Positions 31,453 to 59,965 of a DNA stretch of 64,000 nucleotides are shown here, piece by piece. The translations under genes were made by a program, and so were the position numbers. The first letter of the stretch is position 1, and each line of letters starts with the position of its first letter. Origin of the DNA: Trypanosoma brucei (lineage: Eukaryota); assembly GCA_000002445.1 (NCBI GenBank), contig CM000207.1, positions 352,001-416,000 of the forward strand, given 5' to 3'. The notes beneath the pieces are model-generated. The model had not been told where the DNA came from, made no database searches, and was given only the letters and a program-made list of their open reading frames with translations.

Positions 31453-32376
31453 TTAAAAGGAAGTATCACTGTTAAAGCAAAGTAAGTTATACCAGTTGCT
31501 GTAACGCGTACAGTCCTCGTATATGTACTGCATAGATGTGCGCATCGTTGGTTGCAGCGCCTCCCTGTGGTATAAGAAAAGGGGCATCACGAACATCCAC
31601 AGCACACCCGAGTACAACCGAAATGCCCAAGGAGGTGGGTGAACAGAGGTTGTAACAGCCAACCTCTCCATTAGAATGAAAAACAACGCACTTAATATGC
31701 GGGAGAGGATGTACATACTCATCTGGACAGTCACAGCACCTTGTTCACCCCAATACAAGCAACCAATAATGAACCCCGCCACCACGCTATGCCAGGGTCG
31801 TTGCCTCCCCTCTACCAAAGCCATTAGCGAGCGGAGCAGCGAAAACGTGAAAGCAGTGGCACCCAGTCGAAGGGCGTGCTGACGCGTGGCATCGAATACG
31901 CGACGGGCAATGACGCTGTACGGTGCGCTACTCCAAACCAAGTTGAGCACAAGGGCATGAGGAGCGCGAATACGAGCGCCGTAGACAAATCCGTTGCGGA
32001 ACGACTTAAGGGCATCAAATAGTATTTTGTACTTACCAGACCGAATCATGTCGTCAATCAGAAGTGTGACTTTCTTGGCTGCACTAATGGGACCACAACC
32101 CCTGTCCGCGGGCTCAGCCGCCATGACTACACGTAATTGTGGCCTTCCTTTAGCGACGGAGTGACTTGTCGATATTGATCCGGTCCCAACTAAAGCGGAA
32201 ACGCAGGAAACGGTAACAGAAACGAAAAAGAGGATGGATAGTCCGAAGAACGGAGTCCACGCAGAGTAGCGGATGTGAACATTGCAACTGGGGGTGACCG
32301 GAAAACAATAACCGGTAGCTGACAGATGCCACAAATCACAAATAGCCGCAGGCCTTGGGGTAGGAAAAGGCCTCAT
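31453..32376 (-). CDS. PXMP4: peroxisomal (glycosomal) membrane protein 4 / PMP24 family (Tim17-like fold)
   Basis: Collinear similarity to human PXMP4: SFRNGFVYGARIRAPHALVLNLVW versus GFRNGAVYGAKIRAPHALVMTFLF, MSMYILSRILSAL versus INMYLLSRVLFAL, and LYHREALQPTMRTSMQYIYEDC versus EYHRSTLQPSLQSSMTYLYEDS. The longest ORF starts at the ATG at 32374-32376 and adds about 84 aa, including a hydrophobic stretch. An internal ATG at 32122-32124 (MAAEPADRG...) aligns with the human N-terminus and would give a 223-aa protein. Confidence 0.85.
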   Translation of the reverse strand: MRPFPTPRPAAICDLWHLSATGYCFPVTPSCNVHIRYSAWTPFFGLSILFFVSVTVSCVSALVGTGSISTSHSVAKGRPQLRVVMAAEPADRGCGPISAAKKVTLLIDDMIRSGKYKILFDALKSFRNGFVYGARIRAPHALVLNLVWSSAPYSVIARRVFDATRQHALRLGATAFTFSLLRSLMALVEGRQRPWHSVVAGFIIGCLYWGEQGAVTVQMSMYILSRILSALFFILMERLAVTTSVHPPPWAFRLYSGVLWMFVMPLFLYHREALQPTMRTSMQYIYEDCTRYSNWYNLLCFNSDTSF

Positions 32377-32830: not shown

Positions 32831-35026
32831 TTACGCATCCTCTCGAAGGCTAATAACTAAGGCATTCTCCGGTGCGGCATTGCTCGCGCGCCATTGTACA
32901 TCAGCGGAGCAACGTGGGCACCGCGGAATCAGCTTTGAGGGGCGCACATCACCAATCACACTCGTCTTATACCTACAGTGCTCACACTGAATGAAGCGAC
33001 GTACTGTCTCCCGTGTCTCAACAATGTGTCCTAGCGATTTGCACCGTTCGTTGCGACGTAAATACCAGCGGTCACATTGCCGACAGTAATGTGCCTTTAA
33101 CTTCTGCTCTGTAACATCAGCCAGCGCCTCCAGTGCTTTGTCCTGCTGAAGTAGCCGCTCGGCCTGCCGTTCAAGTCGCTGACGCTCGTCTAAAGCACGC
33201 AGTTCGTCATTGACACTATGAAGTGACTCTGCAACTTTTCCCAGCAGAGACGCGGGGGGAGGTGCAGAACCACCAGTCTTGTTGGCGGTAGTTTCTCGCA
33301 GCCTCACTTCCTCTTGCCCTACAGAGGATCGTCCGGCAAATTTAGCCAATGAACCTTCAGCACGCAGTTGCCGCTCAACAACGTTAACAATAGCACTGCG
33401 TGTACCCTTTCCCCCCTGCGTGGTAACACCACTATTGTAGCTATTTCTCCCTGTCAAAATTGCGTCACCACGGCGACCTCCCCGCAGGGGAGCGAAGGCT
33501 GAACGGTCGTGAGGGGCGCTAAGTGGGGCAAACTTTTCGCGGACCTCCACCCACGGTGGTTGTTCACAGCCTTCACGTGGTCGTTTGGTCCCCCGCTGAC
33601 TCGGATGAAGGGCAAGGCGAAGAAGGCGATCGAAATTCTTTGCTTCCTCCGCAGCGGCGGCAGCCCCAAGCACAGCACGACCTTGGGTTCCTACGCCAAT
33701 CTGCGTAGGGATATAGCTAGAGGTCATACCTTTACCATCGCCGTTGCTTAGCAGACGCTTCGCGTTCTGGGCCACGTCGTTAACAGGAAGTACGTCGCCT
33801 GCGACAACACCCGCGTAGGCGTTTCCCGCAGCCATAACATCTGCTGATGCAGGAGTTGATGCGGGTAAGCCAGTGGATCCCCTCACCGTGAGAAAGCCGA
33901 GTTTTTGGCGCCGCAAAGCTTGTGACGACGTTTTGGAGGCGGTTATTTGGGCAGACTGGAGAGTCGCCAGATTTATGCACGTTAACGCCGGCGCACTCAA
34001 TCGAGCTGTCCCCAAGGGCTGTGACCGGAATTTGCCACTAACACCGGGGGCAGCACCGCGTGCCTCACGCTGAAGGTTGGCCATATGATGTGCACAATAA
34101 TTCGATAACGACTTATTGACGATATTTTTACAGAGCTCTCCAGACCGTTGCTGAGTACCCTGACATGTAGCAAGGTCTGATGCGAAGCCCAGTACACGTA
34201 CCTGGTCGCATGTGGTAACCTTTAAAATTCCGCAGTCGCCACTCGCGGTAGAGCCCCCACTTGTGGTGGCGTTGAAAGTTGTCTTTCCTACACTTTGATT
34301 TTCCATCCGCTGCATTCCTGACACCGCCAACACCAAACCGCTCAGAATCCTCGTGTAATGTGTATCAAATGCAGACCCGCCAAGAAGAATGGCCACCTCG
34401 CCAGCAGGGCTCACAAATGGTCCTTTCATATCCCACAAGTAGACAACACCGTATCCACGCCCGGTAGACGCTCGCTTTGGCTCCGTCTTATGGACCACCA
34501 CACCAACAACAGTACTGGGGGGCAATGAGTTTCCTCCAGCTGACTTAACAGATCGTCGAAGTCCTTCAAACGTGGTAAAGGGATGCTGCGCCAAAATGAC
34601 GGCCAATTGCTCGCAACTTCGCGTTGGTCGACTAACTTTAATATTGCTGTTGGGCTCCCGTACGATTCCTAACTGCGGCTTCCTAATTGGGGCATCATCC
34701 ACACCTCCTTTTGCAGTGGGAGTTGCCGTGACAACACTCATGAACGAAGCGGAGGGGTTGGTACTGCCTTCTGCCCCACTAAAAGTTTTATTTGCTGGAA
34801 AGACACTTGTGCCGAGGTCGTGCAGTGCAAGCCGAGATACAACGGGGTCTTCCATAGCAGCAGTCACTTGACTGAGACGACTAGCCTGTGAGTTTGGCGC
34901 CACGCCGATTGTGGAATCAACCGACCCACTCACATTTCCACTGGGGTCATGGAATACCGCAAAAAGATCCTCATCGCTTCGATCGTCACTGTCACTTGGA
35001 CTTCTCTTCCCCTCACTTCGTGCCAT
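32831..35026 (-). CDS. MCM10: MCM10 (DNA replication initiation factor) homolog with OB-fold/CCCH zinc-finger core and a C-terminal Cys-rich zinc ribbon
   Basis: Collinear with the human MCM10 internal domain: VVGVVVHKTEPKRASTGRGYGVVYLWDMKG versus GVVIKVLSKSEPKQTKNGRDYSIWTLSDL. The zinc finger C295-x10-C306-x11-C318-x2-H321 (DLATCQGTQQRSGELCKNIVNKSLSNYCAHH) matches the MCM10 CX9-10CX11CX2H signature. The C-terminus has CRQC...CEHC...CPRC. The ORF-track start at 35045-35047 is TTG; the first ATG is at 35024-35026 (MARSEGKRSPS...). Confidence 0.75.
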   Translation of the reverse strand: MARSEGKRSPSDSDDRSDEDLFAVFHDPSGNVSGSVDSTIGVAPNSQASRLSQVTAAMEDPVVSRLALHDLGTSVFPANKTFSGAEGSTNPSASFMSVVTATPTAKGGVDDAPIRKPQLGIVREPNSNIKVSRPTRSCEQLAVILAQHPFTTFEGLRRSVKSAGGNSLPPSTVVGVVVHKTEPKRASTGRGYGVVYLWDMKGPFVSPAGEVAILLGGSAFDTHYTRILSGLVLAVSGMQRMENQSVGKTTFNATTSGGSTASGDCGILKVTTCDQVRVLGFASDLATCQGTQQRSGELCKNIVNKSLSNYCAHHMANLQREARGAAPGVSGKFRSQPLGTARLSAPALTCINLATLQSAQITASKTSSQALRRQKLGFLTVRGSTGLPASTPASADVMAAGNAYAGVVAGDVLPVNDVAQNAKRLLSNGDGKGMTSSYIPTQIGVGTQGRAVLGAAAAAEEAKNFDRLLRLALHPSQRGTKRPREGCEQPPWVEVREKFAPLSAPHDRSAFAPLRGGRRGDAILTGRNSYNSGVTTQGGKGTRSAIVNVVERQLRAEGSLAKFAGRSSVGQEEVRLRETTANKTGGSAPPPASLLGKVAESLHSVNDELRALDERQRLERQAERLLQQDKALEALADVTEQKLKAHYCRQCDRWYLRRNERCKSLGHIVETRETVRRFIQCEHCRYKTSVIGDVRPSKLIPRCPRCSADVQWRASNAAPENALVISLREDA

Positions 35027-36393: not shown

Positions 36394-39300
36394 TCATCTC
36401 CTGCTCAAACCAACTCTAGCCGTTTTTTGTGCCCTCCCTGCAGCAGCTCTTCCTGACAAGGGCGCATTTATTGGCAATGAGGGCACTTTTACTCCACCAG
36501 GGGCGGGACTGCTGCCAGAGGACGAAGCTGCATGACGCATAGCGTCCCTCATATCGCCTTTCCCTCGTTTGCCTTTGGACGGCGGTTGTGGGATCATTAC
36601 GTGGTGAGCGCTAGAAATCTCAGGTAGCGTAATAACCTTTGCCGTTGGTGAGTGTTCGCCGGCGGCGAACTCCTGCGAGGGATCCACAATTTGGGGGAGT
36701 GTGATAGCAACATCCTTCTCACTTCTCGTGGTGGCATTGACGATGGGATTGTTGTAGCTGATACCGTCTTTGCATTCGGTAACCACCTGGATGGTGTAGC
36801 TCGTTGACGGTTCAAGCCCTTCAAGTGTAAACGTCGAGTCAGAGACTGTGCTTGCAAGAATGGGTGTGCAGTTACGCACCCCAATGTAAACACGATAGTT
36901 AATAACCCGATTGCCAGACCGGTTGCTACTGGTCTCTGATCGCGATGGTGTCCACATCAGCGTGACGCTGTTGTCCGTGGTCCCCACCACCGTGAGATCG
37001 GTAACTGGCTCTGGCGCAGTACCACTTGTCACTCCAACGGGTTCACAATACTCGCTGAAAGGACTACCCTCATCAACAAGCGAACACTTCACCCGACAAC
37101 GCACCTTCGCGGCGGGTCCCGTAAATCGCACACGGCAGTTAGTTTCTTCAACAATATCGATAACGCGCCATTCCACCGATCCCTTTGGTTTCCCACGGGA
37201 GTCCGTTGGAGAATGTGACTGCTCAACAACATACCTGTACGCATGATAACAGTCTGGAGCCTCCCACTGTAGCAAACCTGTTTGAGCGTTCTGCCGCCGT
37301 AGAGTTACAGATTGAGGTGGGAATGGTGCCGTTGTCAAGTTGACCTCAACCCAAGCCCCCCAAGAGTTATGCTCATCCATCGCTCGGACTTTGACAGTGT
37401 AGGAGGTGCAGCCGGTGAGGCCATCAATCGTGATGTTCTTCATTGGACCCTCCTCTCCTTCCACATCAAACTCAAGCTGTCGGAAATAAGGCTTTGCCTG
37501 TGAGGCACACAGAACAATGCGGCGCCAATCTGGTAGAAAGTCGTCCCCGCCTTCCTCCGTGGGACCGGCCCCGACGGTACAAGCAGCGCCAACGTCAACG
37601 GCATTTGCACCATCTACTTCCCCTTCCACTGCCGCCGCAGCGCCACTGGCCGCAGGCAACTGCGTATCAGCGGGCTCAACCTCAAGAGGGGCTGCAGCAC
37701 GTGGCAGCGCTTCCGCAGCCTCCCCAGCTGAAACAGTATAAACTGTAGCAGCAGCGTCATTGTTCACGGCAGTAGCGTTAACCTCATCCCCATCGTCATC
37801 CTTATCTTTAGAAGGAATTTCGTCTGTCTTGCGTACTTCAACCTGATATTTCTTTACAATTTGAACAACTGCCTTCCGCTCCATGCTTCCCTCCTCACCA
37901 ACCTCTCCATCCACAATCCTGGCACCCCCGAGCAGTGGATCCCCATGCGCCGGTGGCGATGCTATTCCAGTAGGACTGCCACTGCTTTGTGCGTCAGGAG
38001 GTGAAACAAGCCTAGGGAGCAGGCTTCGTTCCGAAACGGGTGACGGAGACTGCTTTGCTGCCGCTCCTTTGCCCGACTTGCCCCGCTTTGACCCTCCACT
38101 CCCCTTGCTCCCCTTGGGACTTCGAGTACCTTTCCTGCCCCTCGAACCGGTCCTACCCTTTCCGGTGGAGGTTCTACCAGCTGCAGAGCCAGTCGCGTCC
38201 GGTGAAGCTTCGGGGGGTGGGGGTGGCTCCATTCGGTTGAGGGTGAACTCTGCGGAGTCGCATGTAACACCGTTGAGGGCAACACAAATGGGACACAGTG
38301 TCTTGAAACCAACCGTGGGGGTCCATTGGCCCCAACTTAATTCATCATACCGAGGTTGAAGTGCCATAAGATAATCCAAACCAGGAGAAAGGCCCTCCAG
38401 TAAATAGGTCGGAAGTAGAAACTCATCATCCGTCACGCCACAGTCACTTGGATTAATTACATGTTCCACAGTTTCATTACCACCCTTTAAGACAAGCTGG
38501 TATTCGCAGGGATCCAGCCGAGGTTGGGAGTTGCATTTTTCTTCGGAGCGATCACCTTCGCCACGGTCCCACTTCATACGCACATAGATTTCTCCTACAT
38601 TCACCACATCTAATCGCAACACACGCTGCGTGCGGAATAACCCTTCCTTGCTCCACAGACCCCAGCGCGAGTCCGTATTACATGAGCGTACAACGACAAC
38701 GTAGGCCGCATCAGCCTCCAGGGAGCAGATACGGTAGCGGTTCACATCCTTCGGGAACTGCTTATCAACGATAGCGAGGGCTGGAGAGTGTTGCGAAGCG
38801 AACACACACAAATGGTATGCAATTACCTCTGGTGTCCCAAGAACAACGGGAACTGCAGCAACGGCATTGTTTGTAGTACTAGGAAGGCTCTCTGGTTCGT
38901 CAGCAGAAGCCGGGGTCTCGCCGCAACACCCCACAATATCCGCGTATTCTTGCACAGTTTGTTCGTCACGGAACCACTCCACCGTGGCAAACTGTTCACC
39001 AGGGGAGGAGACAATAAGCTGCATCGGCTTTAGAGTCGCAAAGAACGTTCGATCACTCCAGGGGCTCCACGACTCCCGTCGAGAATCCAAGGAACGCACG
39101 GACACCGAGTAGACAGTGGCGGCTTCAAGCAACTTAGCCCGGTAGCTGTTTCGCGCGCCCTTGAACTGCTTGCTAATGTGGTAACTGTGCTCAAGACCGA
39201 TAACGTCCACCTGAAACGTTGAAAGGAAATCATCATTGCCGCAGAGCGCCTCCGATCCGTCTGGAAGTAGCAGAGATCGACGGGGTCTTTGCCAGGAAAA

Positions 39301-42300
39301 CTCGGCGTAATTTTCACCAATAGAACTCATTTCGACGGCAAACTTTGGTAAGGTCATAACATGGACGATTCGGCTCCACCGCCCCCATACATTGTCCACG
39401 CAGCAGCGCACATGAATTCGATATAGCGAATCGTGACGCAGATTGCGTGCAACATAAGTGGTTTCGCTTCCTGAGAGTGGTTTGTCAATTAGCAAAGACC
39501 CTTCATTTGCAGCAGCATTGGGGCCCACCTCATAAACACGAAGCTGGTAGCTATCCACGGGCTTGGGGGGAAACGGATTTCGCACTGGTAGTGGTTGGGC
39601 CCGCGGGTCACGCTCCCAATGGACAGCAAAGAAGTCCTCAGCGCCGTCATCCATGAAACACACCATGTCACGCAGAGTTACGTCATATAGACCATCACTC
39701 CACGCACCTGGCTCCGCTCTACTTTGGTTGAGAGCCTCCACTATGCCTTCATCCTCAGCCTGTGGGAGTTCGGGATGTATGGTATCAACAACAAACTCTT
39801 CGTGCGGCTTATACCAACGTCGCACACTCACACGGTATCGGTGATGAGATAGCAACTCCTTTACTGTGCTGTTACGAACATTTGATGGAATTATCATCGT
39901 GCGGCGTAACCGGGGGGGAAGCTCCTCTGCATCCTCCTCGCCATATGACACATCAGTGAAGTCGTGAACAGCTAGCTCATAGCAAATCAACTCTTCTACA
40001 TCCGAAGGTTGCAGGTCGCTCGTGGCAAATGAGTTCGGAAGTCGTTGCCACGACGCCGTTAGGTAGTCTTCACCAAGGCCAATCAACTCCACACTCAACA
40101 GATTGAGTGTTCCACAGGTAACGTGGGTGCTACTGAGGCCAAACTCACCGCTTCCGTAGCACGCACGGACGGCCAAAGAGTACCGTTTGTCTGGTTTTAG
40201 CGACGACACTGTGAATGTCGTCTTCTCACCTGGCACGTTGAATGTGACACCCTCATCCTCACCTTCTTGCACGAAAGTGATGGCATAGTATGCAACACGA
40301 GTCTTTGCGCTGTTGTACATCGCGGACCTTACTTCTGGTTGGTCCAGAAGGGGGTATCTCTTTTGGCACAATCCGGGTTTCAGTTTGTCAGGTGACATGG
40401 CCCTAAAGGAGGAGCGACGCCCATCTTCTCTTTCCAGAGTTGTTTGAGACTCCGCAGCGAAACCAGAACTTTCGGAGAAATCTCCGGTCTGGCCCCCAAC
40501 ACTTCTGCTGCTTTCCCCCACGGTGATGGGTGTGTTATCGTCGCTGTCACGCCCACTGCTTCCCCCGTTGGACGTTTCCTCACCTTCGTCACTTAGCGTA
40601 CCGTTAGTATCTGTGGATGTGCGCACCATTACTTGCAGTTCATCGGGTTCCTTGCGCCTCCAATGAAGGCGCACATAGTCCTCACCAATAGCCAATACTT
40701 CCGCGCTTATAAGCTTCATGGTGTACACGCAACGTTCCTCCGACCAGAAGCCCCATTCACCAAGGTTGTTCGACGCGCATATTTTAAAAGTATACGGCCT
40801 GTTCGGGGTGAGAGAATCGAGGCGGTACTCCTGAAGATCACCAGCAAACCGCTTTTCGCACAACAACTTGCGGCTGGCTTCATCACAGCGATAGATGCGT
40901 AGAAGGTAGCCGGAGCAATCGCGACACCCGACGCAGATCGTTGGATCAAACCTCCCCTCATATTCGGTACCCTCATCACCTTTTGGTTGTTGCTCCTCAC
41001 GACCCCACTCCAACATGACAGAGTGCTCTGTGATTTGTGTGGGGTAAACCTCTAGGCGCTTAAGTGTCACAAAACGAAGCGGTTCCGACCACATACTTGA
41101 TGCTTCACATTCGTCAATGGAAAGCACCCTGACGGTATAAACTGTGTCCAGGTTCAGGCTTTTCAAACGGTAGTAGGTGTTGGTGGCTCCCGTTAGTACA
41201 ACATTTAACTGCAAGCCATCACGCCCAAGTACATCAATCATGTATGCTGATGCAACGTAACTCCCGGTGAACACTTCAGCCATATCCATTCTCGGATGCT
41301 GCCTGGGGGGAACGCGTTTCCATTCAATTTCGGCGTACTGTTCGTCGATGTGCTTCACATTGACCCGGATCTTCGACATCGTGAGGAAGTGTTGTTCAGC
41401 GCTCCACGCGCCCAACTGGCCTCCCGTGGTCACGCTCATAACTTGGACACTGTAGAAACGATCTTGCTTCAGATTTTCCACTCGGAAAGAGAATGTGTCT
41501 TTGTTGAACCGTCTAGTTAGGTGCAGCCGACCACTCCCATCACTTTCGTACTCAACCGGATGCTCCTGCGGGGGCAGAGGGCCCTGTGTCTGCTGCGTAG
41601 TGGTTAAAACTCCCACAATTTCATCTGCTAGCGTCTTTGGCGCTAGTTCTTCTTCGCTTACCGCGGGTTCCTCACAGCTCTCCCCATCAACGCCATTATC
41701 TTGTAACTCCAACACCCGCACGTAAAACATTTCATTATCCACGCCATGTTGCAGAACATTCATATCATTGTCGTAGTCTACTCTTCGATCTCGTCGCCTC
41801 CAGGTTATCTGGGCCCAATCTTCACCGAGTTTCTCCACAGTTGCAGACATACCAGGCATTGTAACGCATGTTTTTGGAGCACACCAAAGCCCCCAAGCTT
41901 CCTCAGCACCCCACTCACGCACTTCAAACGTGTACTTTGTGTCCACCTGCAGCTTGTCAACACGGAAGACACAGCACGAGCGCATGGTGCGGTACTCCTC
42001 GCAGATCTTCCCCTCATCATCTTCATTCTCACTCTCCCATGTAATACGCAGTTGACAAACACATCCTTCATGAGAAGACGCATCACTTCTCAGTGTGTTA
42101 GCTTCATCTATAGGTGGCAGACGCTTATTTGGAGCTCGGTGCCACTCGATGTCCACAAAGGTTTCAGATATGCACGTGATGGACAACTGGATGAGGCTCT
42201 GCGTCATGAACTTCAACGGCGGCGTCCATGGACCCCAACCTACACCGTAATCGCAACACAGAAGTGCCGTGTACATAGTATTCCATACCAGTTGCTTCAC

Positions 42301-45300
42301 CGTGAAGGCACAGATGATGGGTTCGTTAGTATCTCCGTTACTTTTGCCTTGAATGTAATGATCTTCAAAGGTGCCATTCTGATGAATGATACGCAACTGA
42401 TAACCCCTAATCGGTGTGTGCTCGTGCACAACTACTTCACCACGACCGCTAGCAAGCCAGTTCCTCTTCGCCTTGACGCTTTCCTTAAGGTCACGAAAGG
42501 TGGCAATCCTAGTGTATAGTTCTTGCTGCTCTTCACTCGAAAGCTCCTGTTCCTTTGCCTTAATGTCCTTGGGGCACATACTAGAAAACTCCTTGTTAAG
42601 CTCGAACAACTGCCTCTCGTCTGCTTCAATTTTCGCCGACACAGCTGGTGGTAAGCGATGCCAATAAAGACTGATAAAATGCTCACCAAACCGTTCATGC
42701 AGAAGTTCGATTGGCCTCAACGTTACGAACCGGTTGCGCTCACTCCATGGGCACCAGTCCCCCACGGCGTTCCGCGTCCGCACCTCCATCTCGAAAGGTG
42801 AATCGGGCGTGAGACCCTTCACGGTAATGGAGAGCACTTCGGGGCGTAACTGCACGTCAAAGAGGACAGAGTCTTCCCTTGGTAGACCCAAATCCATGTT
42901 TGCAACTGCTGGAGTTGACGGCTCCCCACCGTCCGAGGACGTCGCCAACTGGGCGCCACCAGGAGCCGACATGTCCACATGGGCGCACTCCATATGGCAT
43001 GCACTGGTAGCTCCTGACATCAGCTTGCGTTGCTGCCGCTTCATTTTGGTCAATAATCTCATAGATTCCGCTCGGCGCTTTCGCCCAACCATCTTTTGAG
43101 AGGGAGAATGAAGTAATAAATGATGAACTCCCTGAATGGTTGGCATAACTCCTTCACCATAAAATCGCAGGTGGTATCCTGTTACCTCTGGGTCGCCCAA
43201 AACAATGTTTTCAACACGGAGGTGATGTATTGCGTCATTGCGGACCGCTGCGTTGTGCTCGTGCCGTAACTCAAGGTGGTCTTTCAAATTATTCCGCTCC
43301 TCTGACTCCTCCAGTTCCTGTAACCGTCGTTTCATGTCGAAAAGTTCGTGTCGCTCACGCTCATCACAGCGTCGCTCCTCTGCGGTACGGCGCTCTTCAA
43401 GGAATGCTTCGTATTTTCTGACATCCTGCGGTATCCGGAACCAGCGGATAATCGCCATCGTCTCGGTGTGGTGCGATACTTCGGTAACCATGGAGGTGAG
43501 AGTTAGCACAGATTCACGGTGAGAAAGCATCGACCAGTGTCTCTTTTCACTCAATGAACGCACGCACACAGAATAAATCTGGTCGGGTTGGAGACCGGTG
43601 ATACGAACAGACATTTGGTACTTGGATAACGTAAGGCACTGTTGCACATCGCACGTAATGCCCTCAAGATAAAGCTCGTAACGCTCGATGGAGTAGTCCC
43701 CAATTTGCACTGCGTCCCAATCGTTGCCGTCATCCTCACCGTCCTCGACCTGTAATTTGCCTTCCACTCCATTGTCACTGGGAAGCACGGACGCCGGCTC
43801 AGGCTCGGCGTCGGACCCCGCATCCAGACCACTGAGGATATCAGTTTCTGTAAACATGCCGCAAAGCTGGGGCAAGTCCCCCAAGTCATCAGGTTTGTTG
43901 AGATCAGGCCGAGCACAAGCCCAATCGGGTAGCGGTCGACTCCAACTCACCAGAATAACATCTTCATACACGGAGTGTACCTTCACCTTCAGTCGACCCT
44001 GCGACACAAACTTCGTTACCTCGCTCCACGGACCCCAGTACCCCTCTGCCTTGGCACGCATGCTCACCGCGTATATGGTGTTACTCACAAGGTTTCCTAA
44101 ATGATACGAGGTTGCAGTGGGCTCAAGAGAGAGAACAGTATCCAGCGAAAGGGGGCCCTCGTACTTCTTTTTTGCCTTAGCATCCAACCGAGTGGCACGA
44201 AGCTCATACGCAGTCACTTTCACCACACCACGAATAATACCCGTTTCTGGGGTTGTGTCAAGCTTCCGGGGAACGCGTCGCCACCCCACCAAGCAGTAGT
44301 CCTCACCAATTTCGATTGGTACAACACCCATCGGATGAACCATTTCCACGACAGCCGTTTGGGAAAAAGTTCCCCATGAATCGGGCACGAACTTCCCTCT
44401 GAAATCAATCCGTTGCTCGCATACAACAACACGGTAATGCGCACCTGGGGTTAAATTACAGAGTCGCAGTGATCGCTGGGAGGTTTCGTATAGTCGGGCA
44501 CCGTTTACAAGAGGTTCATCACGCTCATCGAACGGCTCTTCCGCTGCCAGAGGTTCGATGTGCACCTGGTAATTGTGGATGTCCGCTTCCTCGGGGTAGC
44601 AACAGAAGCAGTGGCTCACTGCTCTTGTCATGGGTGGACGAGTCCATGAAACGTTTATGAAAGTTTCGGTTATGCTGTCAGTACTTAACTTTAGGAGCGG
44701 ACACGTTACCAATATCCGTGGCTTGCTCCAGTGACCCCATGTGTTGTTTTTATCCTGCGCCCGTACGGTAAGGGTGTACTCGGCATCCGCCTGAAGATTT
44801 GTAACTAGTCGACCCATTTCGGCCGCCGGAGCATAAAACTCTACAATATCATCTGCACCAGGTAGGCCACCGGAGAGGCGACGGCACTCCATCTGGACAT
44901 GCCACTGCAGGATATCAGGGCATCCACGCATCACCGTCTCATCAAAAATGTAATCATCGTCCCCGTCACCACCTTCACCACTCGCTAACTCAGAGGATGC
45001 AGTGCAACCATAAACATGTCGGGCACCACGACTAATAATCGAAACACAGCTGCTAGCCCTCCGCTTTATTTGTTCAACATCAGACCCGCCCACATCTCCT
45101 TCTGCCGCCAACGCAGCTTCAGACGCGGCGCTATAGCTTCCGGTGTCACTGCTCCCCTCACCGTCTGTGAAGCCGGAAGTGCGCCGTCCGCTGCGTCGGT
45201 CCACAAGGTCGCTGCGCCGCTCTGCCAGATCGCTGCGGCGGCCCCATTCCAACTGACAAAATGTTTCACCGACAAGCAGCACGTTTGCTTCAACTGATTC

Positions 45301-48300
45301 GAGAGTCACGAAGCGCCTAGAATCACTCCACAAACCCAGTTCATCATATGTATCTTTTGCTGACACTTCGACCGAGTATATCGTTGAAAGTTTCAGCGAC
45401 GACAGCGTACATGTTGTTTGCCTAAAATTGACATACTGTGATACCACTTCATTACCTTCCTTGTCCAGTACATGTACCTTGTACCCGCTCACGGCCCTAT
45501 CCACTGCATTCGTCTCACCTTCATTTTCCCAATTCCTATCACCTGCCCAATTTGGTCGAAACCAAGACACTGTGACGTAATCTTCACCGATGGCCGTAAT
45601 GTCCAACTGCAATTTCGGTAGCGTGCGTACGCGGGCCTCCTCGTTCCAAAATCCCCATATACCCTCGTAGCCCTTCGCACACAGCCAGACACAATACTCC
45701 GCAGATGGCTGCAGATCTTTGAGCCGGAAACTGCTGACGTACGGGCTGAGATCGTAGACGTAATGAACCGGATCACCGACTCTCTCCACCCTTAGTCTGA
45801 ATTGCTGCACAACATCCTCAGACTCAAACACCGCTTCGGTGTCACAGCGGTCAAGGCACGTGGGCAGATGGCGACGCCATTCAACAATGGCAAAATGTTC
45901 GCCAACGTTCCCGAATGTCACACGGAGCCTCGGTTTGGTGTGAAACGACCGGGTCGCCCAAATTCCCCAATCCTGCTTATCTGAGCCACGTGACCGCACA
46001 CCGAATTTATACACCGTATCTGGAAGAAGACCACGAAAAAACAGCTTGTTGTCTTGCACCTCCTTCGTGAATTTGAAATATCCGTCGCCAGCGATGCATA
46101 CCTCGTAACCTTTCGCAGTGGCATCGGTGTTGAGAGCAGTGTCAAAACTAACCAAATTGGAGGTGTCAGACATTCGCGACCACGAAACCCACACGGCATC
46201 TTCGGACACGTGGTGGATGGAGATATCCATTCCAGGAATAGTGCGCACCTTTGCTTCTGTGCTCCACACGCCCCACACTGAATTTTCTCCACAAGTTTGC
46301 ACCACGATACCGTATGTGGTCGAGGGTTGCAGTTCATTGATGTGCAGCGCAGTGAGAGAATTGCTTACTTCAATCAACTTCTGAAAACTTCCATCAATTT
46401 CACGGATTTTTACTCGAGAGGCTACAATAGTTCCCTGTTCAAGTTTCACCTCTGACGATCCACTAACGTGTGGCGGGATGTTGTGCTTGTTGCGTTTCCA
46501 TCCTACACTGACAAAATCTTCTCCAATATCAGTGAACTCTACCTCTGTGGGTGGCACCGTGGCGAAGAAAAGCGGGGGCTGCGACCACATACCCCATTCA
46601 CCGTTCGTCAATTTTGACCGGACAGAAACACAGTACACGGTGTTGGCACGAAGACTGGGGATGGTATGTTCTGTGTCTTCCGTTGTGCTACAAAATTCAG
46701 TTTGGTATATCAAACGGTGGTCGGCTGCGTTTACTGGCAAAGACGAATTATGCACACGCGGCTTAAGTTGTCCTGTGGAACTATGAGGCAACAAGTTCTC
46801 TACGGGGGATGTTACGCACAACATAAGGCAAGGACGGCACTGGCCAAATACTACTACTCTATCGTCGCTGCTTCTGTTTCCATCGTCCTCAGGAAGCCGC
46901 TTCTGTTGGTGGGGCCGGTGTACATTGATTTCACAGAACTCCTCGGATATAACTCTCGTCTGGATTTCCAAGCTCTTCATCGTAAGGCACCACAGTGGCG
47001 AGCTCCATGAGCCCCACTCCTCGTCGTTGTAATTTGCCTTTATTTCCACGCAGTAGTATGTATCCGGCTTCAGGTTGGAGATACGGTACGGTGAGTCTCC
47101 ATCGCCAAGAAAAACTTCGAACACAACACCCCCAACGTTGAACACCCGCAAATGATACGATGTTACGACACCCCTCCCGGTTGCGTAATTTTTCTGGTTC
47201 GGCGGACGACGCCGCTCCCAAGCAATTATGGCATAATCGTCTGCTACTTCTACAGCCCGAGTAAGGATGGTATCACGGGTGAGTATTTGCACGGGCGGGG
47301 TCCAAAGCCCCCAATCCCCACTTGGTCCAGCGGCTCGTATTTGAATGTTGTATGCCGTGGCGTGGTGAAGTCCGTAAATCTTAAGCTCCCGCATGTCCGC
47401 TGGTAGTGAATGGTCCTTGGAGTAGGACTGGTCAATACTCTGTATGCGCAGTTCCTGCTTTGTGACGGTCAAGTCTCCAGTGTGGACATCCTTGTTTTTC
47501 AGCGGATTGGCATCTCGGCTCCACACAATGCTTACATAATTCTCTCCGATGATGAGGTTGTTCACCGGAATTCGAAACTGTGCGTTTGAACGGAAGCGCA
47601 ACGGCTGACTCCACAAGCCCCACATCCGCGTGGACGTGCACGCACGCACGACAGCCATATATTCTCGATCAGGAAGCAGGTCTTCCACACGTAACGACGT
47701 GTGCTCACTGGACACAACCTTGTACCGGGCAACTTCAGAGTTCCCACCCATATGATAGCCACTCAGCGAGCTCGCCGACGACCCAGAGAGCTCCCGGCTG
47801 AAAACAAACACAGCATAGCTCGATACGAACATATCAGCAGCTGCCACGGCCACCGTATTGTCCCTGTCATCACCTTTTGTATTAATGCCGTCTCCACCCA
47901 CCAGAACATCGTCAACTAGCTGCCGCTCCCACATGAGCCGCACAAAGTCCTCTCCGATTTCGTCAACATGCATCATCATAGGAGCCAGTGTACGCAGCTT
48001 CACGCGACTCCAAGCACCCCACTGCTCCACCTCGTTGCATGCACGGACTGAGACGATGTAAGTTGTTGCAGGCTGTAGGTTGCTGATCTTGAAACTCGTT
48101 CCCAACATTTCCTCCCTTAGGACTTCGGTTTCCCCAGAATCAACGCAGTCGACGCAAAGCTCATACTTGAGATCGGCCCATAACTCAGAGATCCCCATAT
48201 CAGAAGATCCCATAGGTAGGGGTACGTCAGAGAGTCCACGACGCCACACAACCTGGGCGAAGTCTTCACCAATATCCCATAGTCTCACACCAAGTGGTTG

Positions 48301-49833
48301 CAGCGTTTGTGTGTGTTTGGGGTCAGTGAACTCACCCCATCCCTCATAACCAGTTAGACGATTAAATTGGTATGACCTGCATTTTAAAATATACATGGTG
48401 TTGGGCCTCAGCTTCTCTACAGTAAACATACATGTATCTCCATCTGACACGATTTCCTCATCTTTCACAACATTCAACTCGTCATGGCTCTCAACCTGCA
48501 TAATAACGATGTTGAATCGAGATGCAAAGCGGCCGTTGCACTCTCCCTCGAGTTTCATAGTTATGAAGTCCTCACCGCGCTCCAAAAAAGTTAATGAAGC
48601 CCTTGCCTCCGTGCGAAATTTCTTGGGTTCTGTCCACATACCCCACTCATTGTTCAAGAACGTCCGTATTGATACATTATACTCCGTCCCGGATGTGAGA
48701 CCCTCAATGTGTATGACTTTATCATCTGCCAACGGTCCAACATCAAGCCTTTCCTCCTGCTTGTACACAGAGTTAAGACTACTGAGACGGTACTCTACCT
48801 GAGTCTCCGTCTCTGCGTCGATCATTCTGGCCCAGGTAAAAGAAAGGAATGACTCCCCTGAGGCAACTACAGATAGCTCCGGACGACTAGCAGTTCGCAC
48901 GCAAAGCGGTTCAGAGCACCTCCCCCAATAGCCCTGCACGCTCAGGCTACGGACAGTGAAAATATAAGAACCCCCTGGTGTTAACTTATCTAGGCGGTAC
49001 GTCCGCTCTTGTTGAGGGAACTCAACAGAGCGAAAAGTCTGACAATCCGATTGAACCAGGACCTCATAGCGGTGCACGTCGTTATCTGGCACAACGTAAC
49101 CGATGGTATCGTCTGAAGTACTGGCTAGAGCCCAACTGACGGTAACAACATCCTCACCGCAGCTCAGGAGTGACATGACATTCGTCTGCCTAGTGAGGAA
49201 GCGACCAACCTCCACCCATTTCTTCATGGTGTTGATGAGCGTCTTGTACCGAATCATAACAATATAAGCCGTACCTGGCCGCAGACCTCGAACTATGTGT
49301 GTTCGCACACCTGTTTCGAAGCGGTCACAAAATTCCTGCCTCATATCAGATTCCCTGAGTACCCGTAACTCAAAGTCGTCAATATCGGCAATGGAACGGG
49401 TGGCATCAGCATCGATTTCCGCAGCGATGCCCGTTGGGGCCCTTGCAGGTCTGTCCCACAGCACACGCACGTAGTCCTCACCAACATCATTGATTTGGCC
49501 CGTAACCGCCGCCAAAGTGGCCGTCCGTGTCACCTCCGACCACACGCTCCACGACATCGTTTTCTCCGAATACACACGAACACGGGCCCTATAAAAACTT
49601 GAAGCCCGAAGCTTCACCACTTTGTGACGCTGTTTGATAGGCAAGACTATATCGTAGAGAGTTTCAACAGTGTCTTCCCCTGCTGTTTCCTCATCCACCT
49701 GAAGCTGCCACTTCGTCACGTCGGTAACGTCATTCCAGCTATGCTTAGAATCAAACTGGAACCCAAACTCCCCAAACATCTCGCCCATACGGTTCACAAC
49801 GGCATTGCACAGAATATCTGTATTAGCTTCCAT
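36394..49833 (-). CDS. giant protein (about 4479 aa) built from about 30-40 diverged fibronectin type III-like repeats, plus a Gly/Ser/Lys-rich low-complexity segment near the C-terminus
   Basis: One uninterrupted 13.4-kb ORF. Recurrent unit of about 100 aa beginning (I/V)GE(D)(Y/F)hxhxWxR and ending WGxWSxPxxF(R)T; at least 28 clear copies (e.g. IGEDFVRLMWERQ...WGLWSQPLRFRS; IGEDYVTVSWFRP...WGFWNEEARVRT). The C-terminal copies are canonical FN3 (PEPVTDLTVVGTTDNSVTLMWTP...YRVY...LEPSTSYTIQVV). No N-terminal signal peptide. The ORF-track start at 49852-49854 is TTG; the first ATG is at 49831-49833. Confidence 0.85.
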   Translation of the reverse strand: MEANTDILCNAVVNRMGEMFGEFGFQFDSKHSWNDVTDVTKWQLQVDEETAGEDTVETLYDIVLPIKQRHKVVKLRASSFYRARVRVYSEKTMSWSVWSEVTRTATLAAVTGQINDVGEDYVRVLWDRPARAPTGIAAEIDADATRSIADIDDFELRVLRESDMRQEFCDRFETGVRTHIVRGLRPGTAYIVMIRYKTLINTMKKWVEVGRFLTRQTNVMSLLSCGEDVVTVSWALASTSDDTIGYVVPDNDVHRYEVLVQSDCQTFRSVEFPQQERTYRLDKLTPGGSYIFTVRSLSVQGYWGRCSEPLCVRTASRPELSVVASGESFLSFTWARMIDAETETQVEYRLSSLNSVYKQEERLDVGPLADDKVIHIEGLTSGTEYNVSIRTFLNNEWGMWTEPKKFRTEARASLTFLERGEDFITMKLEGECNGRFASRFNIVIMQVESHDELNVVKDEEIVSDGDTCMFTVEKLRPNTMYILKCRSYQFNRLTGYEGWGEFTDPKHTQTLQPLGVRLWDIGEDFAQVVWRRGLSDVPLPMGSSDMGISELWADLKYELCVDCVDSGETEVLREEMLGTSFKISNLQPATTYIVSVRACNEVEQWGAWSRVKLRTLAPMMMHVDEIGEDFVRLMWERQLVDDVLVGGDGINTKGDDRDNTVAVAAADMFVSSYAVFVFSRELSGSSASSLSGYHMGGNSEVARYKVVSSEHTSLRVEDLLPDREYMAVVRACTSTRMWGLWSQPLRFRSNAQFRIPVNNLIIGENYVSIVWSRDANPLKNKDVHTGDLTVTKQELRIQSIDQSYSKDHSLPADMRELKIYGLHHATAYNIQIRAAGPSGDWGLWTPPVQILTRDTILTRAVEVADDYAIIAWERRRPPNQKNYATGRGVVTSYHLRVFNVGGVVFEVFLGDGDSPYRISNLKPDTYYCVEIKANYNDEEWGSWSSPLWCLTMKSLEIQTRVISEEFCEINVHRPHQQKRLPEDDGNRSSDDRVVVFGQCRPCLMLCVTSPVENLLPHSSTGQLKPRVHNSSLPVNAADHRLIYQTEFCSTTEDTEHTIPSLRANTVYCVSVRSKLTNGEWGMWSQPPLFFATVPPTEVEFTDIGEDFVSVGWKRNKHNIPPHVSGSSEVKLEQGTIVASRVKIREIDGSFQKLIEVSNSLTALHINELQPSTTYGIVVQTCGENSVWGVWSTEAKVRTIPGMDISIHHVSEDAVWVSWSRMSDTSNLVSFDTALNTDATAKGYEVCIAGDGYFKFTKEVQDNKLFFRGLLPDTVYKFGVRSRGSDKQDWGIWATRSFHTKPRLRVTFGNVGEHFAIVEWRRHLPTCLDRCDTEAVFESEDVVQQFRLRVERVGDPVHYVYDLSPYVSSFRLKDLQPSAEYCVWLCAKGYEGIWGFWNEEARVRTLPKLQLDITAIGEDYVTVSWFRPNWAGDRNWENEGETNAVDRAVSGYKVHVLDKEGNEVVSQYVNFRQTTCTLSSLKLSTIYSVEVSAKDTYDELGLWSDSRRFVTLESVEANVLLVGETFCQLEWGRRSDLAERRSDLVDRRSGRRTSGFTDGEGSSDTGSYSAASEAALAAEGDVGGSDVEQIKRRASSCVSIISRGARHVYGCTASSELASGEGGDGDDDYIFDETVMRGCPDILQWHVQMECRRLSGGLPGADDIVEFYAPAAEMGRLVTNLQADAEYTLTVRAQDKNNTWGHWSKPRILVTCPLLKLSTDSITETFINVSWTRPPMTRAVSHCFCCYPEEADIHNYQVHIEPLAAEEPFDERDEPLVNGARLYETSQRSLRLCNLTPGAHYRVVVCEQRIDFRGKFVPDSWGTFSQTAVVEMVHPMGVVPIEIGEDYCLVGWRRVPRKLDTTPETGIIRGVVKVTAYELRATRLDAKAKKKYEGPLSLDTVLSLEPTATSYHLGNLVSNTIYAVSMRAKAEGYWGPWSEVTKFVSQGRLKVKVHSVYEDVILVSWSRPLPDWACARPDLNKPDDLGDLPQLCGMFTETDILSGLDAGSDAEPEPASVLPSDNGVEGKLQVEDGEDDGNDWDAVQIGDYSIERYELYLEGITCDVQQCLTLSKYQMSVRITGLQPDQIYSVCVRSLSEKRHWSMLSHRESVLTLTSMVTEVSHHTETMAIIRWFRIPQDVRKYEAFLEERRTAEERRCDERERHELFDMKRRLQELEESEERNNLKDHLELRHEHNAAVRNDAIHHLRVENIVLGDPEVTGYHLRFYGEGVMPTIQGVHHLLLHSPSQKMVGRKRRAESMRLLTKMKRQQRKLMSGATSACHMECAHVDMSAPGGAQLATSSDGGEPSTPAVANMDLGLPREDSVLFDVQLRPEVLSITVKGLTPDSPFEMEVRTRNAVGDWCPWSERNRFVTLRPIELLHERFGEHFISLYWHRLPPAVSAKIEADERQLFELNKEFSSMCPKDIKAKEQELSSEEQQELYTRIATFRDLKESVKAKRNWLASGRGEVVVHEHTPIRGYQLRIIHQNGTFEDHYIQGKSNGDTNEPIICAFTVKQLVWNTMYTALLCCDYGVGWGPWTPPLKFMTQSLIQLSITCISETFVDIEWHRAPNKRLPPIDEANTLRSDASSHEGCVCQLRITWESENEDDEGKICEEYRTMRSCCVFRVDKLQVDTKYTFEVREWGAEEAWGLWCAPKTCVTMPGMSATVEKLGEDWAQITWRRRDRRVDYDNDMNVLQHGVDNEMFYVRVLELQDNGVDGESCEEPAVSEEELAPKTLADEIVGVLTTTQQTQGPLPPQEHPVEYESDGSGRLHLTRRFNKDTFSFRVENLKQDRFYSVQVMSVTTGGQLGAWSAEQHFLTMSKIRVNVKHIDEQYAEIEWKRVPPRQHPRMDMAEVFTGSYVASAYMIDVLGRDGLQLNVVLTGATNTYYRLKSLNLDTVYTVRVLSIDECEASSMWSEPLRFVTLKRLEVYPTQITEHSVMLEWGREEQQPKGDEGTEYEGRFDPTICVGCRDCSGYLLRIYRCDEASRKLLCEKRFAGDLQEYRLDSLTPNRPYTFKICASNNLGEWGFWSEERCVYTMKLISAEVLAIGEDYVRLHWRRKEPDELQVMVRTSTDTNGTLSDEGEETSNGGSSGRDSDDNTPITVGESSRSVGGQTGDFSESSGFAAESQTTLEREDGRRSSFRAMSPDKLKPGLCQKRYPLLDQPEVRSAMYNSAKTRVAYYAITFVQEGEDEGVTFNVPGEKTTFTVSSLKPDKRYSLAVRACYGSGEFGLSSTHVTCGTLNLLSVELIGLGEDYLTASWQRLPNSFATSDLQPSDVEELICYELAVHDFTDVSYGEEDAEELPPRLRRTMIIPSNVRNSTVKELLSHHRYRVSVRRWYKPHEEFVVDTIHPELPQAEDEGIVEALNQSRAEPGAWSDGLYDVTLRDMVCFMDDGAEDFFAVHWERDPRAQPLPVRNPFPPKPVDSYQLRVYEVGPNAAANEGSLLIDKPLSGSETTYVARNLRHDSLYRIHVRCCVDNVWGRWSRIVHVMTLPKFAVEMSSIGENYAEFSWQRPRRSLLLPDGSEALCGNDDFLSTFQVDVIGLEHSYHISKQFKGARNSYRAKLLEAATVYSVSVRSLDSRRESWSPWSDRTFFATLKPMQLIVSSPGEQFATVEWFRDEQTVQEYADIVGCCGETPASADEPESLPSTTNNAVAAVPVVLGTPEVIAYHLCVFASQHSPALAIVDKQFPKDVNRYRICSLEADAAYVVVVRSCNTDSRWGLWSKEGLFRTQRVLRLDVVNVGEIYVRMKWDRGEGDRSEEKCNSQPRLDPCEYQLVLKGGNETVEHVINPSDCGVTDDEFLLPTYLLEGLSPGLDYLMALQPRYDELSWGQWTPTVGFKTLCPICVALNGVTCDSAEFTLNRMEPPPPPEASPDATGSAAGRTSTGKGRTGSRGRKGTRSPKGSKGSGGSKRGKSGKGAAAKQSPSPVSERSLLPRLVSPPDAQSSGSPTGIASPPAHGDPLLGGARIVDGEVGEEGSMERKAVVQIVKKYQVEVRKTDEIPSKDKDDDGDEVNATAVNNDAAATVYTVSAGEAAEALPRAAAPLEVEPADTQLPAASGAAAAVEGEVDGANAVDVGAACTVGAGPTEEGGDDFLPDWRRIVLCASQAKPYFRQLEFDVEGEEGPMKNITIDGLTGCTSYTVKVRAMDEHNSWGAWVEVNLTTAPFPPQSVTLRRQNAQTGLLQWEAPDCYHAYRYVVEQSHSPTDSRGKPKGSVEWRVIDIVEETNCRVRFTGPAAKVRCRVKCSLVDEGSPFSEYCEPVGVTSGTAPEPVTDLTVVGTTDNSVTLMWTPSRSETSSNRSGNRVINYRVYIGVRNCTPILASTVSDSTFTLEGLEPSTSYTIQVVTECKDGISYNNPIVNATTRSEKDVAITLPQIVDPSQEFAAGEHSPTAKVITLPEISSAHHVMIPQPPSKGKRGKGDMRDAMRHAASSSGSSPAPGGVKVPSLPINAPLSGRAAAGRAQKTARVGLSRR

Positions 49834-59945: not shown

Positions 59946-59965
59946 TTCAGAAAGCAAACAATGCA

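What the first reader, a model, noticed from the sequence alone, without database searches (positions are those of the whole stretch)
32831..35026. Recognisable MCM10 orthologue carrying both the OB-fold/CX10CX11CX2H finger and a metazoan-type C-terminal zinc ribbon
The internal domain aligns residue by residue with human MCM10, including the diagnostic CCCH finger spacing, so the assignment does not rest on generic zinc-binding features. The C-terminus has an additional CxxC...CxxC...CxxC cluster, reminiscent of the metazoan MCM10 C-terminal domain that yeast lacks. MCM10 is patchily annotated in protists, and kinetoplastid replication initiation is divergent (ORC1/CDC6-like factors), so a clear MCM10 is useful for reconstructing the replisome.
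Basis: partly seen in the sequence, partly recalled or inferred. Interest (0 to 1): 0.5.

Follow-up and report, generated by a model that had tools for sequence, protein, structure and literature searches.

The report
Trypanosoma brucei MCM10 replication factor gene
This is the already catalogued MCM10 DNA-replication gene of the sleeping-sickness parasite Trypanosoma brucei; the only mildly new point is that its C-terminal double zinc module, described in reviews as animal-specific, also occurs in many single-celled eukaryotes.

Summary
A 731-codon ORF lies on the minus strand (CDS 32834-35026, stop 32831-33). It encodes a protein with a CX10CX11CX2H finger (aa 288-314) directly after an OB-fold, and a C-terminal CX2CX10CX4H + CX2CX18CX2C pair (aa 648-706). 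The MCM10 interpretation is supported. Pfam's Mcm10-type finger scores above its curated cut-off. A 34-sequence AlphaFold model puts MCM10 internal-domain crystal structures (maize, Xenopus) in ranks 1-5 (E~1e-12, TM 0.78-0.82) and also recovers the Xenopus MCM10 C-terminal domain. A CTD profile built without animal sequences hits that domain at E=1.3e-7.

It is not new. The window is T. brucei TREU927 and the protein is XP_803462, listed as T. brucei Mcm10 by Liu, Richards & Aves (2009). UniProt names it 'Protein MCM10 homolog', and sister taxa are annotated 'Primase zinc finger/Mcm10 replication factor'.

One correction has some value. 'Metazoan-type' is a misnomer. The ZnF2+zinc-ribbon module, with all eight ligands invariant, is also found in apicomplexan, green-algal, metamonad and choanoflagellate MCM10s, contrary to review statements that the CTD is metazoa-specific. 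Only the zinc module is shared; the upstream part of the animal CTD is not detected. Function in trypanosomes is inferred, not tested.

The parts
32831..35026 (-). MCM10 gene: CDS 32834-35026 (731 aa) plus stop codon 32831-32833
   Evidence: The translation is identical to XP_803462.1 / UniProt Q38FX6.
34952..34975 (-). N-terminal acidic DEDLFAVF motif (aa 18-25) in an otherwise poorly conserved, low-confidence N-terminal region
   Evidence: D20, F22, V24 and F25 are invariant in 5 Trypanosoma species. 'DLF' is retained in the consensus of 34 relatives. Its function is unknown.
34286..34666 (-). OB-fold of the internal domain (aa 121-247)
   Evidence: AF2 pLDDT is 86-98. Foldseek top hits are MCM10-ID structures 7y01, 3ebe and 3h15. 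Pfam MCM10_OB scores 17.5 bits (sub-threshold) here and 38.6 bits in the Lotmaria orthologue.
34241..34285 (-). Variable, low-complexity loop (aa 248-262) between the OB core and the last strand/finger
   Evidence: Its length varies and it is rich in N, S and T across Trypanosoma. pLDDT is below 50.
34085..34165 (-). ZnF1, the CCCH finger CX10CX11CX2H (aa 288-314)
   Evidence: Pfam PF09329 scores 35.7 bits, above the cut-off of 28.8. It aligns to the Xenopus and maize MCM10 fingers. The ligands are invariant in 34 relatives.
33575..33898 (-). Conserved motifs in the ID-CTD linker (aa 377-414 GFLTV..GLP..AYAGV..LP; aa 443-484 helix plus KRPR)
   Evidence: Blocks are invariant in 5 Trypanosoma species and retained in the 34-sequence consensus. 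Model confidence is only 45-72. The role is inferred only.
33119..33208 (-). Long helix (aa 607-636) leading into the zinc module
   Evidence: AF2 predicts helix 607-636 at pLDDT 72-84. It lies within the Pfam PF24863 match, aa 613-681.
33026..33085 (-). ZnF2, the CCCH finger CX2CX10CX4H (aa 648-667)
   Evidence: The spacing is identical to Xenopus CKTCKYTHFKPKETCVSENH in 2kwq. pLDDT is above 92.
32909..32986 (-). Zinc ribbon, CCCC, CX2CX18CX2C (aa 681-706)
   Evidence: It aligns to the Xenopus ribbon in 2kwq, which has CxC in place of the first CxxC. The ligands are invariant or nearly so in 67 hits.
32867..32893 (-). Conserved tail W712...SNAAPE720
   Evidence: W712 is nearly invariant in 34 relatives. 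The SNAAPE motif is conserved in the euglenozoan-like group only.

Best explanation
The ORF is the single, intact MCM10 orthologue of Trypanosoma brucei. Shown here: it has the MCM10-specific internal domain, an OB-fold with a CCCH finger (ZnF1) packed against it. [quoted passage not shown] Inferred from what is established for yeast, Xenopus and human MCM10: OB+ZnF1 and ZnF2 bind single- and double-stranded DNA, and the protein docks on the Cdc45-MCM2-7-GINS helicase. There it promotes the final origin-melting and helicase-activation step and then travels with the fork. The disordered N-terminal region and the ID-CTD linker carry short conserved motifs that probably mediate partner binding. 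The late-G1 transcript peak reported for 'an MCM10 homolog' in T. brucei fits a role at the G1/S transition.
For: Identity: the product is 100% identical over 731 aa to XP_803462.1 / Q38FX6, 'Protein MCM10 homolog'. That accession is listed as T. brucei Mcm10 in Liu et al. 2009.

Sequence: PF09329 scores 35.7 bits, above its cut-off of 28.8. PF24863 scores 24.9 bits and PF22379 17.5 bits, both collinear but sub-threshold. Orthologues pass those cut-offs: Lotmaria has OB 38.6 and CTD 27.3. The Trypanosoma profile hits Xenopus MCM10-ID at E=2.3e-7.

Structure: the AF2 model has the ID at pLDDT 86-98 and the zinc module at 92-97. Foldseek ranks 1-5 are all MCM10-ID structures (E 1.7e-12 to 1e-11, TM 0.78-0.82); the next hit is an RPA OB-fold at 6e-5; 2kwq (MCM10 CTD) scores E 2.3e-4, TM 0.62, rmsd 2.8 Å.

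CTD reciprocity: the trypanosome CTD profile was run against 1.84 billion proteins and gave 67 hits. Of these, 55 match PF24863 and 36 match PF09329. A 24-sequence CTD profile with no holozoan sequences hits 2kwq at E=1.3e-7, and the next PDB hit is at 0.009.

Selection and expression: 12 zinc ligands are invariant in 34 relatives. The zinc module is the most conserved segment within Trypanosoma, with 54% invariant positions. The transcript is late-G1 regulated (PMC10212563).
Against: There are no functional data for any kinetoplastid MCM10 in the searchable literature, so every mechanistic step is by analogy. No canonical PIP box was found. No N-terminal coiled coil and no winged helix are evident in the model, so partner interactions may differ from those in yeast and metazoa. 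The T. brucei protein on its own is below Pfam's cut-offs for the OB and CTD models. The structural match rests on a predicted model, not a solved structure.
Confidence: 0.95

Rival explanations
1. It is a generic OB-fold/zinc-finger ssDNA-binding protein (RPA-, Teb1- or SSB-like) that only superficially resembles MCM10 and works outside replication initiation.
For: OB-folds of RPA, Teb1 and bacterial SSB/PriB also appear in the fold search at E of 6e-5 to 1e-2. Pfam MCM10_OB is below its cut-off for this sequence.
Against: MCM10-ID structures lead by about seven orders of magnitude and cover OB plus finger together, with TM 0.78-0.82 on targets of 166-177 residues. The finger has the MCM10-specific spacing and passes the Pfam cut-off. 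The same protein also carries the MCM10 CTD.
Confidence: 0.02
2. The C-terminal zinc cluster is an independent, convergent treble-clef or ribbon pair, not homologous to the metazoan MCM10 CTD.
For: Short Cys-rich motifs give weak hits to unrelated zinc proteins such as sirtuin-1, thioredoxin 2 and ClpX. With only 5 Trypanosoma sequences the 2kwq hit was marginal, at E=0.033. PF09332 (the animal ribbon model) does not match the non-animal proteins at E<=0.01.
Against: With a deeper non-holozoan profile, 2kwq reaches E=1.3e-7 across both motifs. The spacing is identical: CX2CX10CX4H followed by 13 residues to the next Cys. The module sits at the same terminal position, downstream of an MCM10 ID, in at least 25 full-length proteins. 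The fold match has TM 0.62 and rmsd 2.8 Å. 55 of 67 hits match Pfam's MCM10 CTD model.
Confidence: 0.03
3. It is a decaying or non-functional relic, because kinetoplastid replication initiation is divergent and may not need MCM10.
For: C. elegans tolerates loss of Mcm10 (stated in bioRxiv 10.64898/2026.05.15.725099). Early genome surveys reported MCM10 as apparently absent from the TriTryps (PMC1914216).
Against: The reading frame is an intact 731 codons. The gene is conserved in T. congolense, T. grayi, T. theileri, T. melophagium, Lotmaria and a prokinetoplastid, with every zinc ligand kept. The transcript is cell-cycle regulated.
Confidence: 0.01

Closest known systems
Xenopus laevis / human MCM10 (ID structures 3EBE and 3H15; CTD structure 2KWQ)
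   Same: The OB-fold + CCCH ZnF1 internal domain is shared (Foldseek E~4e-12, TM about 0.8). So is a C-terminal ZnF2 (CX2CX10CX4H) followed by a CCCC ribbon with the same inter-motif spacing (profile E=1.3e-7; Foldseek TM 0.62).
   Different: ZnF1 has CX10C rather than CX9C. The first ribbon knuckle is CxxC rather than CxC. The first about 210 positions of Pfam's CTD model are not matched, so no winged-helix part of the animal CTD was detected. No N-terminal coiled coil is predicted. Structural-alignment identity is only 17-21%.
Zea mays MCM10 internal domain (7Y01)
   Same: It is the best structural match (E=1.7e-12, TM 0.78, 23% identity) and the best single-sequence PDB hit (E=4e-4).
   Different: The solved construct holds only the internal domain. 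Whether land-plant MCM10 has the zinc CTD was not tested here.
Saccharomyces cerevisiae Mcm10
   Same: The ID architecture and the presumed role in CMG activation are shared (established knowledge; not tested here).
   Different: According to PMC5333062, yeast lacks the ZnF2/ribbon CTD and instead has its own C-terminal MCM-binding region and nuclear localisation signals. The trypanosome protein has the zinc module.
MCM10 of other protists and green algae (Cystoisospora, Cyclospora, Kipferlia, Parachlorella, Pleodorina, Hartaetosiga)
   Same: They have the same three-zinc-site architecture: ID finger plus terminal CCCH and CCCC. All were retrieved with the trypanosome CTD profile at library-wide E<=1e-3.
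   Different: They have CX9C (CX10C in Cystoisospora, CX8C in Kipferlia), and the coccidians have CX12C in the second ZnF1 spacer. They lack the euglenozoan SNAAPE tail.

Membership tests
MCM10 | OB-fold in a central internal domain | tested here: met
   In the AF2 model aa 121-247 has pLDDT 86-98, and the top five Foldseek hits are MCM10-ID crystal structures. By sequence alone it is sub-threshold: PF22379 scores 17.5 bits against a cut-off of 27. Orthologues reach 25.7 (T. congolense) and 38.6 (Lotmaria).
MCM10 | CCCH zinc finger (CX9-10CX11CX2H) immediately C-terminal to the OB-fold | tested here: met
   The motif is at aa 288-314 with exact spacing CX10CX11CX2H. PF09329 scores 35.7 bits, above its cut-off of 28.8. 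The ligands are invariant in 34 relatives.
MCM10 | OB and ZnF1 packed as one unit as in the Xenopus ID structure | tested here: met
   Foldseek alignments of 191-206 columns cover nearly whole ID chains of 166-177 residues, with TM 0.78-0.82 and rmsd 3.7-4.0 Å. This rests on a predicted model.
MCM10 | Reciprocal specificity: searching outward with the protein's domains returns MCM10 proteins and not other families | tested here: met
   The CTD profile gave 67 hits, of which 55 match PF24863 and 36 match PF09329; every named hit is an MCM10 or a protein with an MCM10 domain. The full-length profile against PDB returns only MCM10 entries at E<1e-3. Reciprocal BLAST against the human and yeast proteomes was not possible with these tools.
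MCM10 C-terminal domain (metazoan definition: WH + ZnF2 + ZnR) | ZnF2, a CCCH finger (CX2CX10CX4H) | tested here: met
   It is at aa 648-667 and aligns to the 2kwq finger with identical spacing. PF24863 scores 24.9 bits here, just under the cut-off of 26.8, and the database's precomputed Pfam list includes it.
MCM10 C-terminal domain (metazoan definition: WH + ZnF2 + ZnR) | CCCC zinc ribbon after ZnF2 | tested here: met
   It is at aa 681-706 and aligns to the Xenopus ribbon in 2kwq. The fold match has TM 0.62. Pfam's animal ribbon model PF09332 does not match at E<=0.01.
MCM10 C-terminal domain (metazoan definition: WH + ZnF2 + ZnR) | Winged-helix region upstream of ZnF2 | tested here: not met
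   The PF24863 match covers only profile positions 224-292 of 293, whereas the mollusc covers 2-293 and the choanoflagellate 26-292. The model shows only helices, with no beta wing, in aa 394-636 at modest confidence. The trypanosome therefore shares the zinc module, not the full animal CTD.
MCM10 | N-terminal coiled-coil oligomerisation domain | tested here: inconclusive
   No helix longer than 3 residues is predicted in aa 1-120, but pLDDT there is below 50. This region is poorly conserved in MCM10 generally.
MCM10 | PIP box / Hsp10-like motif in the OB-fold (PCNA and Pol alpha binding) | tested here: not met
   There is no Qxx[LIMV]xx[FYWH][FYWHL] match anywhere in the protein. This is an accessory feature, not a defining one.
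MCM10 | Binds DNA and CMG; required for origin firing | not testable with these tools
   This needs biochemistry or genetics. No kinetoplastid study was found.

The most novel reading that the evidence does not exclude
The ZnF2 + zinc-ribbon DNA-binding module of MCM10 is not an animal invention. It was already present in the last eukaryotic common ancestor and was lost in fungi (and possibly land plants). If so, the yeast model lacks an ancestral part of the protein, and T. brucei would be a genetically tractable single-celled organism in which to find out what the still-unexplained zinc ribbon does. A more speculative corollary: suramin, a trypanocide, inhibits DNA binding by vertebrate Mcm10, so TbMCM10 could be one of its intracellular targets.
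Probability: 0.7. Interest if true: 0.4.

Novelty: already known. Interest (0 to 1): 0.22.

Why it matters
For trypanosome biology it matters little, because the gene has been listed as Mcm10 since 2009 and is labelled as such in UniProt. The small added value is comparative. The field's reference review states that the MCM10 CTD is 'not present in unicellular eukaryotes' and 'specific to metazoa' (PMC5333062). The data here show the zinc module in Euglenozoa, Metamonada, Apicomplexa, Chlorophyta and choanoflagellates with all ligands conserved. That changes which parts of MCM10 should be regarded as ancestral. It also suggests that conclusions drawn from yeast, which lacks the module, may under-represent the ancestral mechanism. 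The NCBI product name ('hypothetical protein, conserved') could be updated.

Tried and rejected
- The word-indexed homologue search with the full protein and with the 5-species alignment returned only five Trypanosoma proteins. Candidate lists were probably swamped by low-complexity words.
- A third search with a cleaned ID alignment returned nothing, not even the query's own protein. I treated this as a tool limitation, not as evidence.
- AF2 of the ID alone with 5 sequences gave pLDDT 36.9 and was discarded. The full-length run with 34 sequences succeeded.
- The CTD profile from 5 Trypanosoma sequences gave only a marginal PDB hit (E=0.033, tied with sirtuin and thioredoxin zinc sites). Widening the profile resolved this.
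- A regex search for a PIP box found none.
- Literature searches for TbMCM10, ZmMCM10 and Mcm10 + Toxoplasma + zinc returned nothing.
- The rivals considered and rejected were a generic OB/SSB protein, a convergent zinc cluster, and a relic gene (see rival explanations).
- I did not test whether fungi or land plants truly lack the module, and I made no phylogeny, so 'ancestral to eukaryotes' rests on distribution only.

Full report
**What is there.** The stated interval holds a single long ORF on the minus strand. The mechanical ORF list starts it at a TTG (35047), but the first ATG is at 35026 and the stop codon is 32831-32833. 17 of the 18 ORFs of at least 200 aa in the window are on the minus strand. 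Pyrimidine-rich tracts followed by AG lie upstream of the ATG. Both features fit a trypanosomatid polycistronic unit; this is an inference. The translation is 100% identical over its full length to XP_803462.1 / EAN76294.1 / UniProt Q38FX6 of Trypanosoma brucei brucei TREU927.

**Checking the motifs.** The CX10CX11CX2H pattern occurs once, at aa 288-314. The C-terminus contains CX2CX10CX4H (aa 648-667) and CX2CX18CX2C (aa 681-706). All twelve ligands are invariant in five Trypanosoma species that are only 42-50% identical overall. They are also invariant in 34 full-length relatives drawn from several eukaryotic supergroups. Within Trypanosoma the zinc module is the most conserved segment, with 54% invariant positions against 35% for the internal domain.

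**Is it MCM10?**
- Sequence level: Pfam's Mcm10-type finger (PF09329) scores 35.7 bits against a curated cut-off of 28.8. The MCM10 CTD model (PF24863, 24.9 vs 26.8) and the MCM10 OB model (PF22379, 17.5 vs 27) match collinearly but fall just below threshold. Orthologues pass them: Lotmaria has OB 38.6 and CTD 27.3.
- PDB by sequence: a profile of the five Trypanosoma proteins hits the Xenopus MCM10 internal domain at E=2.3e-7, with the weak OB segment and the strong finger segment in the right order.
- Structure level: a first AF2 run on the ID with five sequences failed (pLDDT 37). A full-length run with a 34-sequence alignment gave pLDDT 86-98 for aa 121-325 and 92-97 for aa 640-720.
- Fold search: Foldseek against the PDB placed five MCM10-ID chains (maize 7Y01; Xenopus 3EBE and 3H15) in ranks 1-5, at E from 1.7e-12 to 1e-11 and TM 0.78-0.82 on the target. 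The next hit, an RPA OB-fold, is at 6e-5. The Xenopus MCM10 C-terminal DNA-binding domain (2KWQ) was also found, at E=2.3e-4, TM 0.62 and rmsd 2.8 Å.

**The C-terminal domain.** I searched a profile of the trypanosome CTD (aa 628-731) exhaustively against 1.84 billion representative proteins. It gave 67 hits at E<=1e-3, nearly all at the extreme C-terminus of 560-1070-aa proteins. Of these, 55 match Pfam's MCM10 CTD model and 36 match the MCM10 finger. At least 25 full-length hits show an upstream finger of the MCM10 type. A 24-sequence CTD profile containing no animal, choanoflagellate, algal or metamonad sequences hits 2KWQ at E=1.3e-7 across both zinc motifs, and the next PDB hit is at 0.009. 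The spacing is identical to Xenopus: CX2CX10CX4H followed by 13 residues to the next Cys. The one difference is that Xenopus has CxC at the first ribbon knuckle. Homology of the zinc module is thus established.

The whole animal CTD is not present, however. Pfam's 293-position model is matched over 2-293 in a mollusc and 26-292 in a choanoflagellate. In trypanosomes, green algae and one of the two coccidians only the last 70-90 positions are matched. The model shows only helices, with no winged helix, upstream of the module.

**Distribution.** Named hits include:
- Lotmaria (trypanosomatid) and Papus (prokinetoplastid)
- Cystoisospora and Cyclospora (Apicomplexa)
- Parachlorella and Pleodorina (Chlorophyta)
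- Kipferlia (Metamonada)
- Hartaetosiga (choanoflagellate)
- Lymnaea (mollusc)

They contradict the statement in the main MCM10 review that the CTD is 'not present in unicellular eukaryotes' and 'specific to metazoa' (PMC5333062). The databases already know this implicitly. UniProt calls the Kipferlia protein 'Replication factor Mcm10 C-terminal domain-containing protein', and the T. equiperdum orthologue is annotated 'Primase zinc finger/Mcm10 replication factor'. I did not test fungi or land plants and made no tree, so an origin in the last eukaryotic common ancestor is likely but not demonstrated.

**What is already known.** Hammarton (2007) reported MCM10 as apparently absent from the TriTryp genomes (PMC1914216). 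Liu, Richards & Aves (2009) then listed XP_803462 as T. brucei Mcm10 (PMC2667178). Briggs et al. (2023) found 'an MCM10 homolog' among late-G1-peaking transcripts in both life-cycle forms (PMC10212563). I found no functional study of any kinetoplastid MCM10. A 2018 preprint notes that, apart from PCNA and the MCM subunits, core replication proteins are functionally unstudied in T. brucei.

**Mechanism.** The domain architecture is shown. The mechanism is inferred from established work on yeast, Xenopus and human MCM10 (PMC5333062; bioRxiv 10.64898/2026.05.15.725099). On that basis OB+ZnF1 and ZnF2 bind DNA. The protein engages CMG, drives the transition from double CMG to two active forks, and stays with the replisome. 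The trypanosome protein lacks a canonical PIP box and shows no predicted N-terminal coiled coil. It has its own conserved short motifs: DEDLFAVF near the N-terminus, GFLTV..GLP..AYAGV in the linker, and a SNAAPE tail. Their partners are unknown.

**Verdict.** The modest residual interest is the correction that the MCM10 zinc CTD module is pan-eukaryotic rather than metazoan. A side note is that suramin, a trypanocide, inhibits vertebrate Mcm10 DNA binding (PMC6731595). That connection has not been tested on the parasite protein in any paper I could search.

Noticed in passing
window 34952-34975 (-), aa 18-25: An acidic DEDLFAVF motif lies in the otherwise unconserved N-terminus. D20, F22, V24 and F25 are invariant in Trypanosoma, and 'DLF' survives in the consensus of 34 cross-supergroup MCM10s. 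It may be a short linear partner-binding motif.
   Followed up: no
window 33575-33898 (-), aa 377-484: The ID-CTD linker holds conserved blocks (GFLTVxGSxGLP...AYAGV..G..LP; LGV..RGRxVLxAA; KRxR) that persist in the 34-sequence consensus. They are candidates for CMG or Pol alpha contacts and a nuclear localisation signal.
   Followed up: no
window 32867-32893 (-), aa 712-720: After the ribbon, W712 is nearly invariant in all 34 relatives. The SNAAPE tail is conserved only in the kinetoplastid/euglenozoan-like group and is absent in algae, holozoans and Kipferlia.
   Followed up: partly
proteins P0011-P0075 (hits): ZnF1 spacing splits the family. The kinetoplastid-like sequences mostly have CX10C. 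Green algae, the choanoflagellate, the mollusc and Papus have CX9C, and Kipferlia has CX8C. The two coccidians have a CX12C second spacer, and Cystoisospora also has CX10C in the first.
   Followed up: partly
window 36394-49854 (-): The upstream neighbour is a giant 4486-aa ORF built of dozens of fibronectin type III-like repeats of about 100 aa (Pfam fn3, 370 bits in total). This is unusual for a trypanosome protein. A 257-aa ORF on the + strand (41746-42519) lies inside it and is probably spurious.
   Followed up: partly
window 31453-32376 (-): The downstream neighbour is a 307-aa protein of the Tim17/Tim22/Tim23/Pmp24 family (PF02466, 51 bits). Its mechanical N-terminal extension probably precedes the true start codon.
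   Followed up: partly
window 1-64000: 17 of the 18 ORFs of at least 200 aa are on the minus strand, and cumulative GC skew falls steadily. The whole window is one directional polycistronic gene cluster. Another very long ORF (3004 aa, 51012-60026) was not examined.
   Followed up: no
database record XP_803462.1 / EAN76294.1: NCBI still names the product 'hypothetical protein, conserved', although UniProt and the sister-species annotations call it MCM10. This is an annotation lag rather than a biological gap.
   Followed up: yes
literature (PMC6731595): Suramin, the classic drug for T. brucei infection, is a potent inhibitor of DNA binding by human and Xenopus Mcm10. No searchable paper has tested the parasite's own MCM10.
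   Followed up: partly
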